Origin: a virus
Lineage: Duplodnaviria; Heunggongvirae; Uroviricota; Caudoviricetes
Strand: one strand, 5' to 3'
Virus record (IMG/VR): IMGVR_UViG_3300025292_000002
Coordinates: 33,568-97,567 of that record
DNA: 64,000 bases
The notes below the pieces were generated by a model. It was given only the letters and a program-made list of their open reading frames with translations, searched no databases and was not told where the DNA came from. Of the stretch, positions 4,013 to 58,808 are shown piece by piece (position 1 is the first letter of the stretch; each line of letters begins with the position of its first letter). The translations under genes were made by a program, and so were the position numbers.

Positions 4013-4042
4013 TATTATATTGACAGCTCTCAGAATGTAAGG
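4013..4042 (-). promoter_or_regulatory. conserved phage promoter module (family copy)
   Basis: tattatattga-N12-tgtaagg. Confidence 0.6.
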
Positions 4043-4085: not shown

Positions 4086-4412
4086 TTATGCTGCTTTATA
4101 CTCTATGTTGAGCTCGGTTTTGTCAATGATATATAAACCCATTTTTACATATTGAGCAATGATTTGTGTTAAGCTTGCAAATTTCCCCATCACAACTTGA
4201 TTTCTAAAATCATATAAAGCATATCCTTCATTTGGAATATGTACAATTTCACGGAAGTTATTTCGCCCGAATAATATTACTTTACCCACTTCTACATTAG
4301 CAAAAGTTAAACGTTCAATCTTTTCCTTATTGATAGTAATTGACGTTCCTCGTCTTTTCTTTGTAGCTGGTGCTGAAGTAGTTTGGCTTTTAGTTACATA
4401 TGGTTTTGTCAT
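4086..4412 (-). CDS. hypothetical basic protein (start moved to internal ATG with AGAGGA RBS)
   Basis: The track ORF 4086..4466 runs through the 18-bp palindrome. An internal ATG is preceded by aaaagaggaaattaag. Confidence 0.5.
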   Translation of the reverse strand: MTKPYVTKSQTTSAPATKKRRGTSITINKEKIERLTFANVEVGKVILFGRNNFREIVHIPNEGYALYDFRNQVVMGKFASLTQIIAQYVKMGLYIIDKTELNIEYKAA

Positions 4413-4448
4413 CTTAATTTCCTCTTTTCGGTTTTTTATTTTTATTTT

Positions 4449-4466
4449 TTGAATATTAATTTTCAA
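4449..4466. repeat. 18-bp palindrome family copy (ttgaatattaattttcaa)
   Basis: 17 of 18 identity to TTGAATATTAATATTCAA; intergenic. Confidence 0.8.
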
Positions 4467-4470
4467 TTAA

Positions 4471-5067
4471 TTAACCTGCATAAGGCATTACATAAATTGT
4501 AATAAATTCACTCCAAGCTTTAGAAATATTTTGTTTATAATGAAGGCGCTCGAATTTTTGAACCAATCCGTTAACTCGTCCTTCAAAATTACGACGAACT
4601 GTATTATAGTTGAAAATGTTCAATCCTAAACGGTGAATTTCTATTAGGTTGATTACGAGCTCTTTGATTTCTGCCATCGTATATTCTTTTGTAGCTGCAA
4701 CCACGTCTTTGTATGTGCGTTTTTTAGGGGTTTGTTTTAATTCAACGCCATAATATTCCATTACATGTTGACGAATATAATTTCTAAATTTGTCCAATCC
4801 TAACTTTTCTTTATTCATAGTAAACCAACTGTAATAAGATTCAGCTAATGGACCCATGTTTTTAAATTGACCAGTTCGCATTGGATTTCCACCGCTGATA
4901 AGGCATTCAAAAACCAACTCGTGTAAACCTTCTAATGTAAATGATGCACGGTCATAGCGATTGCGATTTGCTTCTTTCTTTGCGATTGAAATCTCATTAA
5001 CTTTTGTTTGTTTTGTTGTCACAATTAACAGCTCCTCAATTTGTATTTTTATTTGTTTGTCTTTCAT
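4471..5067 (-). CDS. hypothetical protein
   Basis: 198-aa ORF immediately downstream of a family promoter. Confidence 0.55.
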   Translation of the reverse strand: MKDKQIKIQIEELLIVTTKQTKVNEISIAKKEANRNRYDRASFTLEGLHELVFECLISGGNPMRTGQFKNMGPLAESYYSWFTMNKEKLGLDKFRNYIRQHVMEYYGVELKQTPKKRTYKDVVAATKEYTMAEIKELVINLIEIHRLGLNIFNYNTVRRNFEGRVNGLVQKFERLHYKQNISKAWSEFITIYVMPYAG

Positions 5068-5073
5068 GATACT

Positions 5074-5102
5074 ATTGTATTGACGTAAACATGGCGGTAA
5101 GA
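5074..5102 (-). promoter_or_regulatory. conserved phage promoter module (family copy, -35 variant)
   Basis: tattgtattga-N11-cggtaaga. Confidence 0.55.
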
Positions 5103-5245
5103 CAGCGAACTAACATTTTTTCAAAAAAAATACAGCTACGATATTAAATCGTAACTGTATAGCTTTTGATGATTGGTTATATGATTGTTCACGAACAAAT
5201 AAATAAATTGAAAAGCTGCATGATTAGTAAAATGAACATTTTACC

Positions 5246-5272
5246 ATAAAAAAACGGAGCCTAAGCTCCGCT
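5246..5272 (-). terminator. rho-independent terminator
   Basis: hairpin cggagc-ttag-gctccg followed by T7 on the minus strand. Confidence 0.65.
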
Positions 5273-5282
5273 TTCCTTTGAT

Positions 5283-5630
5283 TTACTTCGATTCTCTTTC
5301 ATCTGCTTCAAATGATTTCTCACGCTCGCAATAAGCAGCATATACTTTCAAGGTTTCAACAATTAATTTCGGAGAAAGGTATTTTTCCAGCTGGAACATA
5401 TCACCTGGCTCAGAAACATGAGCTAATACATGACGGAACATATCCACATCGTCTTTTATTAGATTGTGTAAATATCGGTCATACACAACAATCCCTTCAC
5501 CATTTAAAATAATACAGCCACGTAGTTTGCCATGGTTGAAATCTCTGGCTGGAACGTCATTCACACCATTCCCATCATATGTTTTCCATGTTGGTAATAA
5601 AACATCTTCCATTCGGATTTTGTAACCCAT
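5283..5630 (-). CDS. hypothetical protein
   Basis: 115-aa ORF. Confidence 0.5.
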   Translation of the reverse strand: MGYKIRMEDVLLPTWKTYDGNGVNDVPARDFNHGKLRGCIILNGEGIVVYDRYLHNLIKDDVDMFRHVLAHVSEPGDMFQLEKYLSPKLIVETLKVYAAYCEREKSFEADERESK

Positions 5631-5697
5631 TCAAAACAACTCCTTATTTATATGATACATATATCATAACATATGTTACCAGATAAATCAAGAACTG

Positions 5698-6264
5698 TTA
5701 CTTGAGCGCCTCAAATCTTTCTTCAGCAAATTCTTCTTCACGAGAAGCCATTGTTTGATTGTATTCTCCAGCTATATAATAATTTCCGTATTGGTCTTGT
5801 TTGCCAGGTGTTAACGTGGCATTTCGTATTCGCATACGTTTACCGCACTGTCTACAATTGCAATAAATTTGCTGCTTAAGTATGAAATGTTTCCCTTTGT
5901 CATTGCACGATGGACAAATGTAATACAATTGGAATTTTTCATCTTTGCCTTTCTTTTCAAGCTTACCCCAATGTGTTTCAGGCTCAGCAACCGCAATAAC
6001 AGGTGGTGGCTCTTCAACTTTTGTTTCTTCAGCTTTTACTTCAACCTTTTCTTCTTGCTCAAGGTCTTTAACAGCTTCATATCCCATTTGATATAAACGT
6101 AAAGCCTCGGAATTGTTTTGATTTTCAGCATTTGAGCTAAAATAAAACATTCTCACCATGTTATCGACAAGCTGAAACTGAGCTTGTTCGTCATTGTGTT
6201 CCATTTTTGCTTCGAGCGTCTGCCCGTTTTTGTTTGTTATTTTTATCTCTATTTTTGACAACAT
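5698..6264 (-). CDS. zinc-finger protein (two CxxC pairs), start moved to internal ATG
   Basis: The track ORF overlaps the upstream gene by 125 nt. An internal ATG follows tttttaggaggtttt, and a terminator lies just upstream. Motifs CPSC...CNCRQC. Confidence 0.5.
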   Translation of the reverse strand: MLSKIEIKITNKNGQTLEAKMEHNDEQAQFQLVDNMVRMFYFSSNAENQNNSEALRLYQMGYEAVKDLEQEEKVEVKAEETKVEEPPPVIAVAEPETHWGKLEKKGKDEKFQLYYICPSCNDKGKHFILKQQIYCNCRQCGKRMRIRNATLTPGKQDQYGNYYIAGEYNQTMASREEEFAEERFEALK

Positions 6265-6303
6265 AAAACCTCCTAAAAATGTACTACATATACTATTATA
6301 CAA

Positions 6304-6330
6304 CAAAAAAATACCCTCAGACGAGGGTAA
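6304..6330 (-). terminator. rho-independent terminator
   Basis: hairpin accctc-gtct-gagggt followed by T7 on the minus strand. Confidence 0.65.
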
Positions 6331-6334
6331 TTTC

Positions 6335-7021
6335 TTACAAATCCTTAATGATACTTTGGACGTGAGCTGTCCAAGCACCTTTAATTCCTTTATGCTCTTT
6401 TTGGAATTTTTGAAACATGCCATTATTTCTGCCAGACGATAGCTTAAATTGTTTGCCAATCAATGGCGTTTTGTCAGAATTTAGGTGCATATCAATGATA
6501 GCTTCTTTTAATTCTTCCATGAATTCTTCATGTGTTCCGTATGCTAAACCAGTTCCGTGAACAGCTCCTTTTCTTTTTTTCTTTGGAGGACGATTAAATT
6601 GGTCAAGCTTGTTTTGTTGAGCAGGTTTTTCTTGAACGATTGTAGCCACTTCTTCTTTTACAACTTCTTCAACTTCTTGACGAACAATCGAATTAACACT
6701 GCTCATACCTTTGATAATTCCACGATAAGCTTGAGCCATTTCGTCACGGATTGTATCACGAACAATTTCACGAATTTCCGTTTTCATTGTTTCACGGATT
6801 GTACTTTCCATTGAATTGTTCCAAAGCTTCATAAATCCTTCGACGCTATCACGAGTTATAATCATGAAAATGTCTTCTGTTGAAAGGTTTTTTTCTTTAG
6901 CAATTTTTTCAGCTCGTTTTTCAACCGTGTTATTCTTTATCTCTGTTTGTTTGATAACATCGGTATCTCTGGCTTGTTTGCCATACTTTGCATTCCATTT
7001 GTCTAGCTGAGATTTTGTCAT
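6335..7021 (-). CDS. hypothetical protein
   Basis: 228-aa ORF. Confidence 0.55.
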   Translation of the reverse strand: MTKSQLDKWNAKYGKQARDTDVIKQTEIKNNTVEKRAEKIAKEKNLSTEDIFMIITRDSVEGFMKLWNNSMESTIRETMKTEIREIVRDTIRDEMAQAYRGIIKGMSSVNSIVRQEVEEVVKEEVATIVQEKPAQQNKLDQFNRPPKKKRKGAVHGTGLAYGTHEEFMEELKEAIIDMHLNSDKTPLIGKQFKLSSGRNNGMFQKFQKEHKGIKGAWTAHVQSIIKDL

Positions 7022-7051
7022 TACATAAACACCTCTTTTTCTTTTGTCTTA

Positions 7052-7084
7052 ATCATTGTACAATATTTATGAACTTTTGTAAAC
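7052..7084 (-). promoter_or_regulatory. sigma-A-type promoter (TTTACA-17-TACAAT)
   Basis: minus-strand reading ctgTTTACAaaagttcataaatattgTACAATg. Confidence 0.5.
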
Positions 7085-7089
7085 AGTAA

Positions 7090-7120
7090 AATAAAAAGAC
7101 GTGACACGGAGTCACGCCTT
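7090..7120. terminator. bidirectional rho-independent terminator
   Basis: hairpin cgtgac-acgga-gtcacg with T runs on both sides. Confidence 0.6.
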
Positions 7121-7122
7121 TT

Positions 7123-7140
7123 TTGAATATTAATATTCAA
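7123..7140. repeat. 18-bp palindrome family copy (perfect TTGAATATTAATATTCAA)
   Basis: perfect palindrome; intergenic, next to a terminator. Confidence 0.85.
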
Positions 7141-7141
7141 T

Positions 7142-7615
7142 TTATTTAGTTTCGTTATTTTTCATAGTTCTAGCTTTTATTTCTTCTTCACGCTTTTTCA
7201 TAGCTTCTTGAACACGTTCTGCCATATTGCTTAACTCTTCTTGTTTTTCTTTTTTATCGTCTTTTTTATTGTTGTTTTTAGCTGGAGTTTTTTCTTTCTC
7301 CTTAGCTTGTTTTGGTTCTATTATTTCTGCTCCAATACCTTCTAAAAATCCAATTATTCCTTTGTCCATTGCTTGTGGTGTAATGTGAGTGATAATATAC
7401 AAATCCTCAGTGATAAATAAGTTTTTCTTTTTGATTACAGCACCTTCAAAATATTCCTCGTCAGACAGCCTCAAGCCTGATTCGAAAGTTCCTTCTATTG
7501 CTGTTCTTTCATCAAGTTGCTTGAAATATTCAAAAAATTCACGAAACAAAGCTGCATGAGTCGGACAATCAAACGATTTCATTTTGCCATTGTAACGAAA
7601 TTTTAACTTTTTCAT
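7142..7615 (-). CDS. hypothetical protein with Lys/Glu-rich C-terminus
   Basis: 157-aa ORF. Confidence 0.5.
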   Translation of the reverse strand: MKKLKFRYNGKMKSFDCPTHAALFREFFEYFKQLDERTAIEGTFESGLRLSDEEYFEGAVIKKKNLFITEDLYIITHITPQAMDKGIIGFLEGIGAEIIEPKQAKEKEKTPAKNNNKKDDKKEKQEELSNMAERVQEAMKKREEEIKARTMKNNETK

Positions 7616-8388: not shown

Positions 8389-8418
8389 TATTATATTGGA
8401 TTCAAATGGTTTGTAAGG
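8389..8418 (-). promoter_or_regulatory. conserved phage promoter module (family copy, 1-nt variant)
   Basis: tattatattgga-N11-tgtaagg. Confidence 0.5.
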
Positions 8419-8424
8419 ATGCCA

Positions 8425-8452
8425 AATAAAAAAACCCTGATTTCTCAGGGTC
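8425..8452 (-). terminator. rho-independent terminator
   Basis: hairpin accctga-gaaa-tcagggt followed by T7. Confidence 0.65.
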
Positions 8453-8457
8453 TGTAT

Positions 8458-8685
8458 TTATTTTACAATATGTTTGAATTTGCCATGGTCTGTTTTTATT
8501 TTAAGGATTCCTTGTGCTTCAGTATTTAAATATGCAAGAAAGCTTTTTTGCAACGGTGTGCCACCTTCTTCATAAGCTGTCATTACAATATCATGTATAC
8601 TCATGAAACCACAAACGTAACTGGCATCTTTACTCTCCAGCTCTTTAATTTTATCCTTCAATTTTAACAATGGCTCATCCTTCAT
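8458..8685 (-). CDS. hypothetical protein
   Basis: 75-aa ORF. Confidence 0.45.
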   Translation of the reverse strand: MKDEPLLKLKDKIKELESKDASYVCGFMSIHDIVMTAYEEGGTPLQKSFLAYLNTEAQGILKIKTDHGKFKHIVK

Positions 8686-8706: not shown

Positions 8707-9015
8707 TTAAGCTAATCCTCCACCGAAATCGTCCAACGGTTCAACAACTTTTTGTTGTACGGGCACTGTTTGCTTTACCTTAGGAATATATGTTGGTTCG
8801 GGCTCAGTCAATTCAACTTCAGCTACAGAAGCTGAAAGTTCAAGTTGAGCTGGCATGTAATGTTTGTTTTTCATTTCTTCTTCAGCTATATCACGTTCAA
8901 CTAGCTGACGGATATATAACGCTATACCATCTTTGTCCTTTTTCGAGTCGAGCTTCTCACACACAGCTGGATGTTTTTTCTTGTTTATACGCAATGGATA
9001 TAGCCATATTGTCAT
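8707..9015 (-). CDS. small protein downstream of the ParM-like gene, possibly a ParR-like ribbon-helix-helix adaptor
   Basis: ATGA start/stop overlap with the upstream gene. The N-terminus shows a beta-strand followed by helix pattern. Confidence 0.4.
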   Translation of the reverse strand: MTIWLYPLRINKKKHPAVCEKLDSKKDKDGIALYIRQLVERDIAEEEMKNKHYMPAQLELSASVAEVELTEPEPTYIPKVKQTVPVQQKVVEPLDDFGGGLA

Positions 9016-9842
9016 GCAAACATCATCTCGAATCGTTTTTCATACGTCAAGAACAAGCCAACAACGTTAACATAGTAAGCTGGGTACTCAGTTAATGAGA
9101 CACTCTTCGCATTCTCATAACCAACTTCTTGTAATGCTTCGGCAATTGCTTCTGATTTGCCACCTGTCACAAGAATTTCTTTGTCATAATCAACATCAGG
9201 AAAAGCTCGAGAGAAACTATCAGCTAACGCAAAGCTTGAATGTTTGATTGTGCCACCATTCAATGTTTTTGAGCGGGCTGCATTTATTGTTCCTTCGATT
9301 AAATATAAAATATTCATTGTCATTGAGCCAGCATCAACAACAACCAAATCTCGATTGTTTGTAAATGCTAAAGCTCCTAAACCTTCAGCTGCAACTCGTA
9401 AATTTTCAATTGTGAAATTGAAAGCTTTGTTGTCAACAACACTTTCACGAGCTCCGTTTAATTTTTGTTCGAAATAATCTTTGTCTTTTTTCATAGCTGT
9501 GTACGGGCTTGTCGTTACAACGTTAAATGTTGAGATACCTGTTTCTTTATAAATTTCGTGCAAAGCTCCGACGATTCTAATAATTCCCTCGTGGTGACCT
9601 TTTCGTTTATTGCCTCGGTACATCATTTCTTCGCTAGCGTGAAATTTTGCTGCTCCTTTTCCGATGTAATAATCAAAATTTCCGTATGAAACACGCTTTA
9701 CTTCGTTGTTGAAAACCGTCTCCATTTCCTCGTATTTGTGTGTGATTGAATAAAACGTTCCCACTTTTACGTCTCCTTGGTGACGATAAACATACTTCGT
9801 TGAGAAATTACCTGGGTCAATAAGCACTGTTAGTACTGTCAT
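9012..9842 (-). CDS. actin-like ATPase of the ParM/Alp family
   Basis: phosphate-1 motif LIDPGNFSTK, phosphate-2 motif VVVDAGSMT, adenosine motif LVTGGKSEA; 276 aa. Confidence 0.65.
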   Translation of the reverse strand: MTVLTVLIDPGNFSTKYVYRHQGDVKVGTFYSITHKYEEMETVFNNEVKRVSYGNFDYYIGKGAAKFHASEEMMYRGNKRKGHHEGIIRIVGALHEIYKETGISTFNVVTTSPYTAMKKDKDYFEQKLNGARESVVDNKAFNFTIENLRVAAEGLGALAFTNNRDLVVVDAGSMTMNILYLIEGTINAARSKTLNGGTIKHSSFALADSFSRAFPDVDYDKEILVTGGKSEAIAEALQEVGYENAKSVSLTEYPAYYVNVVGLFLTYEKRFEMMFA

Positions 9843-9919
9843 AACTTTCCCACTCTCCTCATTTTTAATATGAACTTTTCAAAGAACGAAATTCGTGTTT
9901 ATCTTTTGTTGTTGTGTTA

Positions 9920-9948
9920 ATTGTACTATTTATTCGTCAATAGGTCAA
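9920..9948 (-). promoter_or_regulatory. sigma-A-type promoter (TTGACC-17-TACAAT) for the ParM-like gene
   Basis: minus-strand reading TTGACCtattgacgaataaatagTACAAT. Confidence 0.5.
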
Positions 9949-10129
9949 TATAGAAAATATATAAATCGTATATCAAATCTCGACACCACAGTTTTATCAT
10001 ATATAACATATATATACAAAATATACAAACATTTTTGTTTTCTGACATTATTTACAGATGTACAGACAACTTACTTCCTTTTATCATAAATACGAAAACA
10101 ACTCAAAAACAATACGAAAACAAAATAAA

Positions 10130-10161
10130 AACAAAAAAATACCGAGGATTGCTCCTCGGTA
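10130..10161 (-). terminator. rho-independent terminator
   Basis: hairpin ccgagga-gcaat-cctcgg followed by a T run. Confidence 0.65.
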
Positions 10162-10163
10162 GG

Positions 10164-10418
10164 TCATGTAAGATGTCTGTTTAAAATTTCAGCTAATTCG
10201 AAAGTCGAAATATTTTCTTTGTAATAAACCAGCTGAAAAGCATCAACATGTTCTATGCTCATTGTCCAATTATTGATGGCTTTGTGTTCGATTGTGAAAC
10301 GTAATCCGTTCCAAGCAAATTTTGTCGTGCATAAAACCTTGCTGAAGGCTATCACTTCTTTGACAACCTCAGCATTTTTTTCAACGGGCATATTGCAATT
10401 AATCATAATGTTTTTCAT
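10164..10418 (-). CDS. hypothetical protein
   Basis: 84-aa ORF co-transcribed with the sigma gene. Confidence 0.5.
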   Translation of the reverse strand: MKNIMINCNMPVEKNAEVVKEVIAFSKVLCTTKFAWNGLRFTIEHKAINNWTMSIEHVDAFQLVYYKENISTFELAEILNRHLT

Positions 10419-10436: not shown

Positions 10437-11027
10437 TTAGATTGCTAATCCTCGCATTAATAAAAGGGATTGCAATTTTTCTTTTGTTTTGCGTACACGT
10501 TGGTTTGCTGCTTGGCGAGAAATTCCACGCATTTCAGCTAAAACTGTTGAATTAAATTCATGAGGATATAAAATACATAACAGCTCTTCTTTTTCACGAT
10601 TGTCTGTATGTTCCTCGATAACTTGCATGATTTCTTCGCCAACGATGCCACCATATGTGAAATCAACTTCATCTTGCTTGAACATATCTTCATATGTTAA
10701 ATCTTCAGAGTCGCCAAGTGTTGCGTTCATTGAAACAACGCCATAGCTTGTACGTTTTTGAGCTGTGATTTTTTGTGCTTCGTTACCTGTTACCTTTTTT
10801 AATTTGAATGTTAAAAATGTTGAGAAAGCATGCTTTTCATCGTATTCTTCAAACGCTTTCCATGTTTCAAGCTTCATTTCTTGAATCATGTCTTCACGTT
10901 CAATTGAATTGAATTTGCTGATTGCGATGTTAGCTGCTTTGTTAATCATACGATTAAAATGTTTTAAAACCTCCTCGTATGTCATTTCCTTTTTAACACC
11001 GTTTGATAAGATAATAGTTTTTTTCAT
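10437..11027 (-). CDS. phage-encoded sigma-70-family (ECF-like) sigma factor
   Basis: region-2-like LETWKAFEEYDEKHAFSTFLTFKLKK and region-4 helix-turn-helix MRGISRQAANQRVRKTKEKL; 196 aa. Confidence 0.75.
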   Translation of the reverse strand: MKKTIILSNGVKKEMTYEEVLKHFNRMINKAANIAISKFNSIEREDMIQEMKLETWKAFEEYDEKHAFSTFLTFKLKKVTGNEAQKITAQKRTSYGVVSMNATLGDSEDLTYEDMFKQDEVDFTYGGIVGEEIMQVIEEHTDNREKEELLCILYPHEFNSTVLAEMRGISRQAANQRVRKTKEKLQSLLLMRGLAI

Positions 11028-11157: not shown

Positions 11158-11259
11158 TGTCGAACACAATTCTGAAAATTTCGACTTTTTTCGACGTTTT
11201 CTGACACCATTCGACAAAAGTTTCACAAAAGCGTAGTGTTTGGACGCAATTTTCGACAA
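11158..11259. promoter_or_regulatory. phased array of Spo0A-box-like (TGTCGAA) repeats in the sigma-factor leader
   Basis: exact TGTCGAA at 11158-11164 (+), and on the minus strand at 11210-11216 and 11253-11259; 6-of-7 matches at about 11180, 11191 and 11199; spacing about 10-11 bp. Confidence 0.5.
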
Positions 11260-11493
11260 AATATTTGATTATGTTACAACTTTGTTACACAATGTTACAG
11301 TACAAATTTCTTTGTAAGAACTTCGTTGTCCCTTTTCACTTTCTCAATATATCATGGTTGGAAACTTTCGTAAAGTGATATTTACTTTACGGGAATAATG
11401 ACGGACAGTTGCTCGAGTGAGCAACTCCGTATTATCAATGTTTCCAACATGATAAACTTTTTTTATTTTTTTTCAAAGACCTGATGACCTGGT

Positions 11494-12538: not shown

Positions 12539-12604
12539 ACATACGTTCCCCTAACATAGTTTTATAGTAACACGAACGATTGTTCGGTGTAAAGTGGGAA
12601 CGAC

Positions 12605-21150: not shown

Positions 21151-21180
21151 TATTATATTGAGAAACTAGCGATTGTAAGG
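21151..21180 (-). promoter_or_regulatory. conserved phage promoter module (family copy)
   Basis: tattatattga-N12-tgtaagg. Confidence 0.6.
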
Positions 21181-25050: not shown

Positions 25051-25080
25051 TATTATATTGACGTAATTCCAGCTGTAAGG
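25051..25080 (-). promoter_or_regulatory. conserved phage promoter module (family copy)
   Basis: tattatattga-N12-tgtaagg. Confidence 0.6.
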
Positions 25081-47238: not shown

Positions 47239-47268
47239 TATTATATTGACGAAACCGAAATTGTAAGG
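47239..47268 (-). promoter_or_regulatory. conserved phage promoter module (family copy)
   Basis: tattatattga-N12-tgtaagg. Confidence 0.6.
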
Positions 47269-50602: not shown

Positions 50603-50632
50603 TATTATATTGACGATATTTAATATGTAAGG
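50603..50632 (-). promoter_or_regulatory. conserved phage promoter module (family copy)
   Basis: tattatattga-N12-tgtaagg. Confidence 0.6.
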
Positions 50633-53533: not shown

Positions 53534-53563
53534 TATTATATTGAAAAAGTTTCGTTTGTAAGG
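53534..53563 (-). promoter_or_regulatory. conserved phage promoter module (family copy)
   Basis: tattatattga-N12-tgtaagg. Confidence 0.6.
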
Positions 53564-58778: not shown

Positions 58779-58808
58779 TATTATATTGATTTACTGGCCA
58801 TTGTAAGG
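58779..58808 (-). promoter_or_regulatory. conserved phage promoter module (family copy)
   Basis: tattatattga-N12-tgtaagg. Confidence 0.6.

What the first reader, a model, noticed from the sequence alone, without database searches (positions are those of the whole stretch)
8707..10161. Actin-like ParM/Alp ATPase with a small downstream RHH-like partner and a 300-bp repeat-containing leader
Gene 9012..9842 has the three actin-fold nucleotide-binding motifs (DPGNFSTK, VVDAGSMT, VTGGKSEA). It is ATGA-coupled to a 102-aa protein whose N-terminus looks like a ribbon-helix-helix (ParR-like). Upstream is a ~280-bp ORF-free leader. This leader is bounded by a terminator and a TTGACC-17-TACAAT promoter, and carries direct repeats (AATACGAAAACAA twice, GTCAATA twice, ATATACAAA twice). 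The arrangement has the same parts and order as a type II (actin-based) partition cassette, parC-parM-parR, but it sits inside a virulent-phage early region. It could position or segregate phage DNA, or support a replication compartment.
Basis: partly seen in the sequence, partly recalled or inferred. Interest (0 to 1): 0.55.

Follow-up and report, generated by a model that had tools for sequence, protein, structure and literature searches.

The report
AlfA/AlfB actin-type partition cassette in phage-plasmid
This is a diverged copy of the known AlfA/AlfB actin-filament DNA-segregation system of Bacillus plasmids pLS32/pBS32, carried by an uncultured relative of that phage-plasmid family, where it most likely keeps the phage stably inherited as a low-copy plasmid rather than serving a virulent infection.

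Summary
On the minus strand, a 276-aa actin-fold ATPase (9012-9842) is ATGA-coupled to a 102-aa protein (8707-9015). A 321-bp leader lies upstream, bounded by a terminator and a TTGACC-17-TACAAT promoter.

The ATPase is an AlfA orthologue: E 1e-81 and about 50% identity over the full length to solved AlfA, and its model has TM 0.94 to 6bqw, so it lacks subdomain IIB. The small protein is an AlfB orthologue. It has a conserved N-terminal strand-helix-helix domain, a variable linker and a conserved acidic-GG-F/L C-terminal tip.

The window is collinear with Geobacillus phage GR1 and with plasmids pLS32/pBS32, a recognised phage-plasmid group. Four things argue for a temperate plasmid-prophage rather than a virulent phage:
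- a perfect LexA box in a promoter two genes upstream of the sigma gene;
- a tyrosine recombinase just outside the window;
- terminators on both sides of the operon;
- absence of the phage's own promoter class from the leader.

The centromere is not settled. The pLS32-type TTATTTAA array is absent. A clade-conserved block overlapping the -35 is the best candidate.

Verdict: a new, diverged member of a known system, of modest interest.

The parts
10140..10161 (-). Intrinsic terminator ending the upstream sigma-orf84 transcript. It insulates the alfAB operon on its 5' side.
   Evidence: 9-bp stem, 5 GC pairs, T-run. Equivalent hairpins are visible by eye in the relatives' leaders.
10089..10132 (-). 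22-bp tandem repeat, 2 copies, 19/22 identical. It is window-specific and its function is unknown. It is an alternative centromere candidate.
   Evidence: 0 of 400 shuffles reach its score. It is not present in L014-L017, L142 or L143.
10001..10029 (-). Distal cluster of TTTGTATAT / TTTGTATAT / ATGTTATAT repeats, 9-10 bp apart.
   Evidence: Relatives have TATATA-rich stretches at the same relative position, but these do not align well. The cluster is not above chance on its own.
9943..9985 (-). Clade-conserved block TGTCGAGATTTGATATACGATTTATATATTTTCTATATTGACC, which abuts and overlaps the -35. It is the best candidate for the AlfB-binding centromere/operator (the parN equivalent). TATA cores recur about every 11 bp.
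   Evidence: - TGTCG is invariant in 7/7 leaders, and ATTTGA(T/C) is kept in 5/7. AlfA in these relatives is only 57-73% identical to the window's.
- The block occurs once per locus and once in the window.
- Weak 11-bp periodicity, z +1.2 to +1.8, is seen in all five leaders tested.
- Two relatives carry alignment gaps of 10 and 11 nt, about one unit in length.
- The position matches that of parN in pLS32.
- A second sigma-A-like promoter, TTGATA-18-TATATT, also lies inside the block.
9920..9948 (-). Sigma-A-type promoter of the operon, TTGACC-17-TACAAT.
   Evidence: An aligned promoter scores at least 10/12 in four of the five clade leaders scanned.
9876..9887 (-). Conserved 5'-UTR motif GTTCTTTGAAAA, role unknown.
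   Evidence: It is among the most conserved stretches in the alignments of 5 and 7 clade leaders.
9012..9842 (-). alfA orthologue: a 276-aa three-subdomain bacterial actin, the filament-forming ATPase.
   Evidence: - PDB AlfA 6f95/6bqw at E 1e-81 over the full length.
- 49.8% identity to pBS32/pLS32 alfA.
- Pfam ALP_N 7.7e-11, above the curated cutoff, and phrog_691 'partition protein'.
- AF2 model pLDDT 91.6, TM 0.94 and rmsd 1.7 A to 6bqw_A, with ParMs next at TM 0.6-0.7.
8707..9015 (-). alfB orthologue: a 102-aa adaptor. It has an N-terminal DNA-binding-type domain (residues 1-50), a disordered linker, and a C-terminal DFGGGLA tip that I infer to be the AlfA-binding peptide.
   Evidence: - Residues 4-46 are 41-43% identical to the ORF after alfA in pLS32/pBS32 and GR1.
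- Family profile E 2.8e-25; alignments.
- AF2 model: extended 1-15, helix 16-28, helix 31-51 (pLDDT about 90), remainder below 50.
8458..8685 (-). Third gene of the operon, 75 aa, unknown function, conserved in the window's clade.
   Evidence: tblastn gives 43-60% identity in L014, L015 and L016 at the same position. No Pfam, PHROG or NCBIfam match.
8432..8453 (-). Intrinsic terminator closing the alfA-alfB-orf75 operon.
   Evidence: GC-rich hairpins followed by T-runs are visible at the same place in L014, L015 and L016.
8390..8417 (-). Context: the first phage-class promoter (CTTACA-N14-AATATAAT) downstream of the operon, driving thymidine kinase. This class is absent from the alfA leader.
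   Evidence: 9 exact copies in the window against 0.03 expected, all on the gene strand.

Best explanation
The locus is an alfA-alfB operon with its cis-acting site. It is the actin-type (type II) DNA segregation system first described on Bacillus subtilis (natto) plasmid pLS32/pBET131 and present on pBS32. Here it is carried by an uncultured phage of about 97 kb from the same pBS32/pLS32/GR1 phage-plasmid lineage.

Proposed mechanism, by homology with the characterised system:
1. Host sigma-A RNA polymerase transcribes alfA-alfB-orf75 from TTGACC-17-TACAAT.
2. AlfB dimers bind short AT-rich repeats that overlap this promoter. The best candidate is the conserved block at 9943-9985. Binding both represses the operon and forms the segregation complex.
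3. The conserved C-terminal tip of AlfB captures growing ends of AlfA filaments.
4. ATP-dependent AlfA polymerisation between two bound copies pushes sister genomes apart, so each daughter cell or forespore inherits the low-copy plasmid prophage.

Shown here: the identity and fold of AlfA; the orthology and architecture of AlfB; the operon structure; synteny with plasmids and a temperate phage; and the regulatory separation from the phage's own promoter class.

Inferred: DNA binding at the named block; the role of the AlfB C-terminus; the plasmid-prophage lifestyle of this particular element.
For: AlfA:
- E 1e-81 to solved AlfA; model TM 0.94 to 6bqw.
- Phosphate and adenosine motifs are intact, and D170, the equivalent of AlfA D168, is invariant.

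AlfB:
- Orthology and three-part architecture.
- The ATGA coupling is universal across related loci.

Lineage:
- The gene order sigma - alfA - alfB - tdk - topoisomerase B/A is shared with pLS32, pBS32 and GR1, and the polymerase and guanylate kinase genes upstream also have homologues there.
- pBS32 needs AlfAB for low-copy maintenance, and PalfAB falls when SigN is induced (PMC6751061).
- pBS32 is a recognised phage-plasmid community (PMC7969092).
- GR1 is a plaque-forming siphovirus judged temperate (PMC10237291).

Lifestyle of this element:
- Perfect Cheo box CGAACAATCGTTCG inside a promoter two genes upstream of the sigma gene.
- Tyrosine recombinase, holin, amidase and a large glycoside-hydrolase (tail-fibre-like) gene on the same contig.

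Regulation:
- The operon is bracketed by terminators.
- It lacks the phage promoter class that drives the neighbouring genes.

Centromere:
- pLS32-clade leaders show TTATTTAA repeats at 12-bp spacing overlapping the -35 (autocorrelation z up to +5.3).
- The window's clade has a conserved block at the same position.
Against: - The pLS32-type TTATTTAA array is absent here. The periodicity of the candidate block is weak (z about 1.5 per sequence, and the sequences are related). The block could be explained simply by two overlapping sigma-A promoters.
- No homologue of the pLS32 replication initiator RepN, or of the GR1 replication protein, was found in the window. The six ORFs in the equivalent position have no informative family match. 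Plasmid replication is therefore not demonstrated.
- All members of the window's clade come from metagenomes, so none has been seen as a plasmid in an isolate.
- The DNA-binding fold of AlfB has no support from fold or family searches.
- The details of parN and of AlfB binding in pLS32 come from my memory of Tanaka 2010 and Polka 2014. Neither paper could be read here.
Confidence: 0.75

Rival explanations
1. The cassette acts mainly during lytic growth. AlfA filaments, attached through AlfB, would move or position replicating phage genomes. This would resemble AlpC/AlpA of prophage CGP3 or the tubulin PhuZ, rather than segregation of a plasmid prophage.
For: - The operon sits among replication and nucleotide-metabolism genes, next to the phage sigma factor.
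- CGP3 AlpAC is an early-induced actin/adaptor pair that binds promoter repeats and is needed for efficient phage replication (PMC4446434).
- GR1 forms plaques.
- No plasmid replication initiator is recognisable in the window.
Against: - The operon has its own sigma-A-type promoter, is closed off by terminators, and lacks the phage promoter class found 9 times elsewhere in the window.
- In pBS32, PalfAB expression goes down when the lytic-type sigma SigN is induced.
- The orthologous system is a demonstrated plasmid-stability determinant.
Confidence: 0.15
2. The proteins are AlfA and AlfB, but the centromere is not the promoter-proximal block. It would be the window-specific 22-bp tandem repeat (10089-10132), the distal TATAT cluster, or a site outside the leader. 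The conserved block would then be only promoter/operator sequence.
For: - The 22-bp tandem is the only repeat in the leader that clearly exceeds chance.
- pSK41-type parC sites are tandem repeats of about 20 bp (my recollection of Schumacher 2007).
- The conserved block contains two sigma-A-like promoters, which could explain its conservation.
Against: - The 22-bp tandem is absent from all six relatives of the clade, although their AlfB N-terminal domains are conserved.
- In pLS32 the AlfB site overlaps the promoter (plus recollection of Tanaka 2010).
- Conservation in the block extends to spacer positions that a promoter does not require.
Confidence: 0.2
3. The cassette is an inactive remnant carried along in a phage genome and has no present function.
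For: pBS32 is often described as carrying a cryptic or defective prophage.
Against: - Both ORFs are intact and all nucleotide-binding motifs are present.
- 44 columns are invariant across 24 AlfA sequences down to 38% identity.
- AlfB keeps its N-terminal domain and C-terminal tip while its linker drifts.
- Operon signals are conserved.
Confidence: 0.03

Closest known systems
[quoted passage not shown]
   Same: - AlfA is about 50% identical over its full length, with the same three-subdomain fold.
- AlfB is orthologous, with the same three-part architecture and the same overlapping start.
- The operon lies between a SigN-like sigma factor gene and thymidine kinase on a collinear backbone.
- The operon has a third small gene and its own sigma-A promoter.
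   Different: - The TTATTTAA x3 (12-bp) parN array is absent; a different conserved block sits in its place.
- The AlfB strand residues differ (YPLRIN against YQINFN), as does the tip (DFGGGLA against DDSGGFL).
- An extra 84-aa gene and a terminator lie between the sigma gene and alfA.
- The third gene is unrelated in size (75 aa against 51 aa).
- No RepN homologue was found.
Geobacillus phage GR1 (OK896991), 'actin like protein' UDY80721 plus hypothetical protein UDY80722
   Same: It is the closest isolated phage. The window is collinear with GR1 positions 700-48,545, and the sigma-alfA-alfB order is the same. GR1 is a siphovirus with recombinases and is judged temperate.
   Different: - AlfA is only 48% identical, and there is no nucleotide-level similarity.
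- GR1 belongs to the pLS32 clade for AlfB, for the leader repeats and for SigN-type promoters.
ParM/ParR/parC of plasmids R1 and pSK41 (canonical type II partition)
   Same: The logic and gene order are the same: centromeric repeats overlapping the promoter, an actin-like ATPase, and a small adaptor that also acts as repressor. ParM structures are the next-best fold matches (TM 0.6-0.7). The AlfB N-terminus aligns in register with the pSK41 ParR ribbon-helix-helix at P=0.003.
   Different: - AlfA lacks subdomain IIB and shares about 14-18% identity with ParMs.
- AlfB has no significant sequence or fold match to ParR.
- There are no 11-bp x10 or 20-bp x4 iteron arrays.
AlpC/AlpA/alpS of Corynebacterium glutamicum prophage CGP3
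   Same: [quoted passage not shown]
   Different: - AlpC and AlpA are not orthologous to AlfA and AlfB; the published view is that AlpA has no homology to AlfB.
- The CGP3 system is induced early and promotes lytic replication of an integrated prophage.
- The gene order differs.

Membership tests
AlfA (three-subdomain bacterial actin) | Full-length sequence homology to pLS32 AlfA | tested here: met
   phmmer E 1.4e-81, residues 3-276 against 5-278 of 6f95. 49.8% identity by tblastn to pBS32/pLS32.
AlfA (three-subdomain bacterial actin) | Actin-fold nucleotide-binding motifs, including the catalytic Asp equivalent to AlfA D168 and the adenine-stacking Phe equivalent to F12 | tested here: met
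   D9, G11, N12 and K16; D170-A-G-S-x-T; G227-G228. These are invariant and F13 is nearly invariant across 24 sequences.
AlfA (three-subdomain bacterial actin) | Absence of subdomain IIB (about 275 aa) | tested here: met
   The protein is 276 aa. The AF2 model (pLDDT 91.6) superposes on 6bqw_A at TM 0.94/0.94 and rmsd 1.7 A over 277 columns.
AlfA (three-subdomain bacterial actin) | ATP/GTP-dependent polymerisation into bundling double-helical filaments | not testable with these tools
   Needs purified protein or live imaging.
AlfB (AlfA adaptor) | Encoded immediately downstream of alfA in the same operon | tested here: met
   A 4-nt ATGA overlap here and in 15 of 15 loci where the ORF is present.
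AlfB (AlfA adaptor) | Sequence homology to pLS32/pBS32 AlfB | tested here: met
   N-terminal 42-44 residues are 41-43% identical. Family profile E 2.8e-25. The C-terminal GG-F/L tip is shared. The linker is not alignable.
AlfB (AlfA adaptor) | Binds centromere DNA, represses the operon, and binds AlfA | not testable with these tools
   Needs EMSA or footprinting, a reporter assay and a pull-down.
parN (pLS32 centromere) | Three tandem 8-bp AT-rich repeats (TTATTTAA, 12-bp spacing) overlapping the alf promoter | tested here: not met
   No TTATTTAA array is seen in 9843-10163, and there is no 12-bp periodicity (z -0.7). The array is seen in L003, L011, L012 and L013. The definition of the feature partly rests on my recollection of Tanaka 2010.
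parN-like centromere (functional equivalent) | Short repeats at about one helical turn, overlapping the operon promoter, conserved with the cognate adaptor | tested here: inconclusive
   Conserved block at 9943-9985, unique in the window. 11-bp autocorrelation z +1.2 to +1.8 in five related sequences. Gaps of 10 and 11 nt in two relatives. k-mer enrichment is not above shuffles.
Ribbon-helix-helix (ParR/CopG/Arc type) DNA-binding domain | N-terminal beta-strand, helix, tight turn, helix; dimerises through the strand | tested here: inconclusive
   - AF2 monomer: extended 1-15, helix 16-28, G30 turn, helix 31-51, pLDDT about 90.
- hhalign to pSK41 ParR (2q2k): P=0.003, 33 columns in register, probability 11%.
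- Arc: no alignment.
- Pfam and PDB sequence searches: none.
- A dimer could not be modelled.
pBS32-type phage-plasmid | Collinear backbone shared with pBS32/pLS32 and phage GR1 | tested here: met
pBS32-type phage-plasmid | Phage lysis and structural genes on the same molecule | tested here: met
   Holin, amidase, a 1007-aa glycoside-hydrolase (tail-fibre-like) gene and a tyrosine recombinase lie just beyond the window on the same contig (L021). Head and terminase genes were not reached.
pBS32-type phage-plasmid | Plasmid replication initiator (RepN) | tested here: not met
   No tblastn hit to pLS32 RepN or to the GR1 replication protein. ORFs at the equivalent position have no family match.
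pBS32-type phage-plasmid | Extrachromosomal maintenance in lysogens | not testable with these tools
   The window's clade is known only from metagenome contigs.

The most novel reading that the evidence does not exclude
The window's clade may represent a second specificity group of the AlfAB system. It would have a new centromere sequence, co-diverged AlfB strand residues and a co-diverged AlfA-binding tip, making it compatible with pLS32-type elements in the same cell. In a plaque-forming phage the same filaments might also be used after induction to organise replicating genomes. That would make AlfAB a dual-use phage cytoskeleton rather than a purely plasmid device.
Probability: 0.15. Interest if true: 0.55.

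Novelty: new member of a known kind. Interest (0 to 1): 0.3.

Why it matters
AlfA is a textbook 'plasmid' actin, and AlfB has no solved structure. This locus and its relatives show three things.
- The AlfAB system appears confined to one lineage of phage-plasmids of about 75-100 kb. Only five full-length clusters at 50% identity exist among 1.84 billion representatives.
- That lineage includes a plaque-forming phage.
- There is a second, diverged clade whose adaptor and leader differ from the pLS32 type.

This provides natural variants for mapping AlfB-DNA and AlfB-AlfA specificity. [quoted passage not shown] It does not reveal a new kind of system.

Tried and rejected
- Megablast of the locus against phage records found nothing. 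Relatives are detectable only at protein level.
- A genome-contig scan with the AlfA profile returned 32 pattern matches, none confirmed.
None encodes AlfA. That scan was wasted.
- Pfam, NCBIfam and PDB sequence or profile searches for AlfB found nothing meaningful.
- hhalign against Arc found nothing.
- 8-mer enrichment against shuffles does not discriminate. It fails even for the pLS32 clade, so it is unusable as a test.
- A best-tandem-repeat score also misses the pLS32 TTATTTAA array.
- I tested whether the conserved TGTCGA or TTGATATAC words are enriched across the window. They are not.
- I tested whether the alfA leader carries a SigN-type or phage-class promoter. It does not.
- Tanaka 2010 and Polka 2014 could not be read, so their details are cited from memory.
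- No DNA was available for P0004.
Full report
**What is in the sequence.**
All genes in the region lie on the minus strand.
- ORF 9012..9842 encodes 276 aa containing DPGNFSTK, VVDAGSMT and VTGGKSEA.
- Its stop codon overlaps the start of ORF 8707..9015 (102 aa) in an ATGA.
- Upstream is a 321-bp leader (9843-10163). It begins with an intrinsic terminator (10161..10140) that ends the preceding sigma-factor/orf84 transcript. It contains a TTGACC-17-TACAAT promoter (9948..9920).
- Downstream, a conserved 75-aa ORF (8458..8685) is followed by a second terminator (8453..8432).

The unit is therefore an insulated three-gene operon. The leader is a little longer than stated.

**Identity of the ATPase.**
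- The 276-aa protein matches Pfam ALP_N above its curated cutoff and PHROG 691, 'partition protein'.
- Against solved structures it matches AlfA of plasmid pLS32 (6f95, 6bqw) at E 1e-81 over its entire length. The next hit is Alp12 at E 0.04.
- It is 49.8% identical to alfA of pBS32 and pLS32 and 48% identical to the 'actin like protein' of Geobacillus phage GR1.
- An AlphaFold model built on 24 family members (pLDDT 91.6) superposes on 6bqw_A with TM 0.94 and rmsd 1.7 A. ParM structures follow at TM 0.6-0.7 and 13-19% identity.

The protein therefore shares the defining peculiarity of AlfA, the loss of actin subdomain IIB (Szewczak-Harris and Lowe preprint). The nucleotide-binding residues are invariant or nearly so in the family, including the Asp equivalent to AlfA D168 and the Phe equivalent to F12.

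The family is small. An exhaustive profile search of 1.84 billion representatives found seven proteins at E<=1e-30, five of them full length. A gap follows before a looser set of short actin-like proteins.

**Identity of the small protein.**
- Alone it finds almost nothing.
- Its residues 4-46 are 41-43% identical to the ORF that follows alfA in pLS32/pBS32, which is AlfB, and in GR1.
- In every related locus the downstream ORF starts 4 nt before the alfA stop.
- A profile of these ORFs retrieves 45 proteins, with the window's protein at E 2.8e-25.

The alignment shows three parts:
- a conserved N-terminal domain of about 45 residues, with Y6, N11, K14, P16, L22, K26, G30, A32, Y34, R36, L38 and D42 invariant;
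- a non-alignable linker;
- a conserved C-terminal tip, DDSGGFL in the pLS32 clade and DFGGGLA here.

**What element this is.**
The window is collinear with GR1 positions 700-48,545. It shares the order sigma factor - alfA - alfB - thymidine kinase - topoisomerase B/A with GR1, pLS32 and pBS32, and its upstream polymerase (PHP-domain) and guanylate kinase genes also have homologues there.
- pBS32 is a low-copy plasmid that needs AlfAB for partitioning. It carries a prophage-like region and a LexA-controlled sigma factor, SigN. Its authors left open whether it is a P1-like plasmid prophage (PMC6751061).
- It was later classed as a phage-plasmid community (PMC7969092).
- GR1 is a plaque-forming siphovirus considered temperate (PMC10237291).

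On the same contig as the window, just past the topoisomerase genes, lie a tyrosine recombinase, a holin, an amidase and a large glycoside-hydrolase (tail-fibre-like) gene.

Inside the window, the only perfect Bacillus LexA (Cheo) box, CGAACAATCGTTCG, sits between the -35 and -10 of a promoter. That promoter lies in the intergenic region upstream of the metallophosphatase-orf76-orf68 genes that precede the sigma gene.

These features point to an SOS-inducible temperate element, not a virulent phage. The weak point is that no RepN-like initiator was recognised.

**Regulatory separation.**
The window carries nine exact copies of a promoter class, CTTACA-N14-AATATAAT, against 0.03 expected. All are on the gene strand, in front of replication and nucleotide-metabolism genes. 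One lies immediately after the alfAB terminator.
- The class is specific to the window's clade.
- It resembles the published SigN consensus used by the pLS32/GR1 clade.
- The alfA leader has neither form.

Together with the flanking terminators and the pBS32 reporter data, this fits expression by host sigma-A in the maintenance state.

**The centromere question.**
In pLS32 the leader carries TTATTTAA / TTATTTAA / TTATTTAC at 12-bp spacing, with the last repeat overlapping the -35. This agrees with my recollection of parN from Tanaka 2010. The same motif and spacing recur in other pLS32-clade leaders, with up to four near-exact 12-bp units.

The window has no such array. In seven leaders of its own clade (AlfA 57-73% identical to the window's), the best-conserved stretch is TGTCGAnATTTGATATACGATTTATAT...TATATTGA, which runs into the -35.
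- It occurs once per locus.
- It shows a weak but consistent 11-bp periodicity.
- It differs between relatives by gaps of 10 and 11 nt.
- It is the positional equivalent of parN.
- Its divergence parallels the change in the AlfB strand residues (YPLRIN against YQINFN).

This is suggestive, not proven. The block also contains a second sigma-A-like promoter, and generic repeat statistics are powerless at this base composition.

**Conclusion.**
The finding is a correctly spotted type II partition cassette. Its specific identity is AlfA/AlfB, a known system, in a diverged uncultured member of the pBS32/GR1 phage-plasmid lineage. The most likely role is segregation of the plasmid prophage. A role in lytic genome positioning, as in CGP3 AlpAC, is a minority alternative.

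Noticed in passing
window 4014-4041, 8390-8417, 21152-21179, 25052-25079, 47240-47267, 50604-50631, 53535-53562, 58780-58807, 63817-63844 (all minus strand): A near-identical promoter class, (C)CTTACA-N14-(C)AATATAAT(A), occurs nine times against 0.03 expected, always on the gene strand upstream of gene blocks. It is specific to the window's clade. It resembles the SigN consensus of pBS32 (TTTACG-N14-GATATAA), so it is probably the regulon of the phage sigma factor (10437..11027), or else a set of very strong sigma-A early promoters.
   Followed up: partly
window 12573-12586: A perfect LexA/Cheo box, CGAACAATCGTTCG, lies between a TTTACA -35 and the -10 of an intergenic promoter upstream of the metallophosphatase-orf76-orf68 genes that precede the sigma gene. 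It is the only perfect box in 64 kb. This mirrors the LexA-repressed PsigN1 of pBS32 and implies SOS induction.
   Followed up: partly
window 11348-11374 (minus) and 11160-11260: A SigN-type promoter (TTTACG-N-GATATA) lies about 320 bp upstream of the sigma gene, which suggests autoregulation. Between it and the gene are four to five copies of (T)GTCGAA within 100 bp, possibly operator sites.
   Followed up: no
window 9876-9887 (minus): GTTCTTTGAAAA in the alfA 5' UTR is among the most conserved stretches of the leader across seven relatives. It has no obvious promoter or RBS role.
   Followed up: no
L014 about 9786-9803; also L017 and L143 distal alfA leaders: Three relatives share a perfect 18-bp palindrome, TTGAATATTAATATTCAA, about 60-70 bp upstream of the conserved block. 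The window lacks it and has the 22-bp tandem repeat in its distal leader instead.
   Followed up: no
window 10164-10418 (minus): An 84-aa ORF lies between the sigma gene and the alfA leader. It is conserved in the window's clade (36-46% identity) but absent from the pLS32/GR1 clade. It has no family match.
   Followed up: partly
window 4086-7615 (minus): Six ORFs (157, 228, 188, 115, 198 and 108 aa) occupy the position where pLS32 has RepN and GR1 a LambdaBa02-type replication protein. They have no detectable similarity to either. The replication initiator or origin of this element may be here and may be of a different type.
   Followed up: partly
search result: Beyond the tight AlfA family there are more than 160 representative proteins, mostly 260-295 aa, at E 1e-21 to 1e-3. 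This may be a wider set of short actin-like proteins. Their context could not be examined.
   Followed up: no
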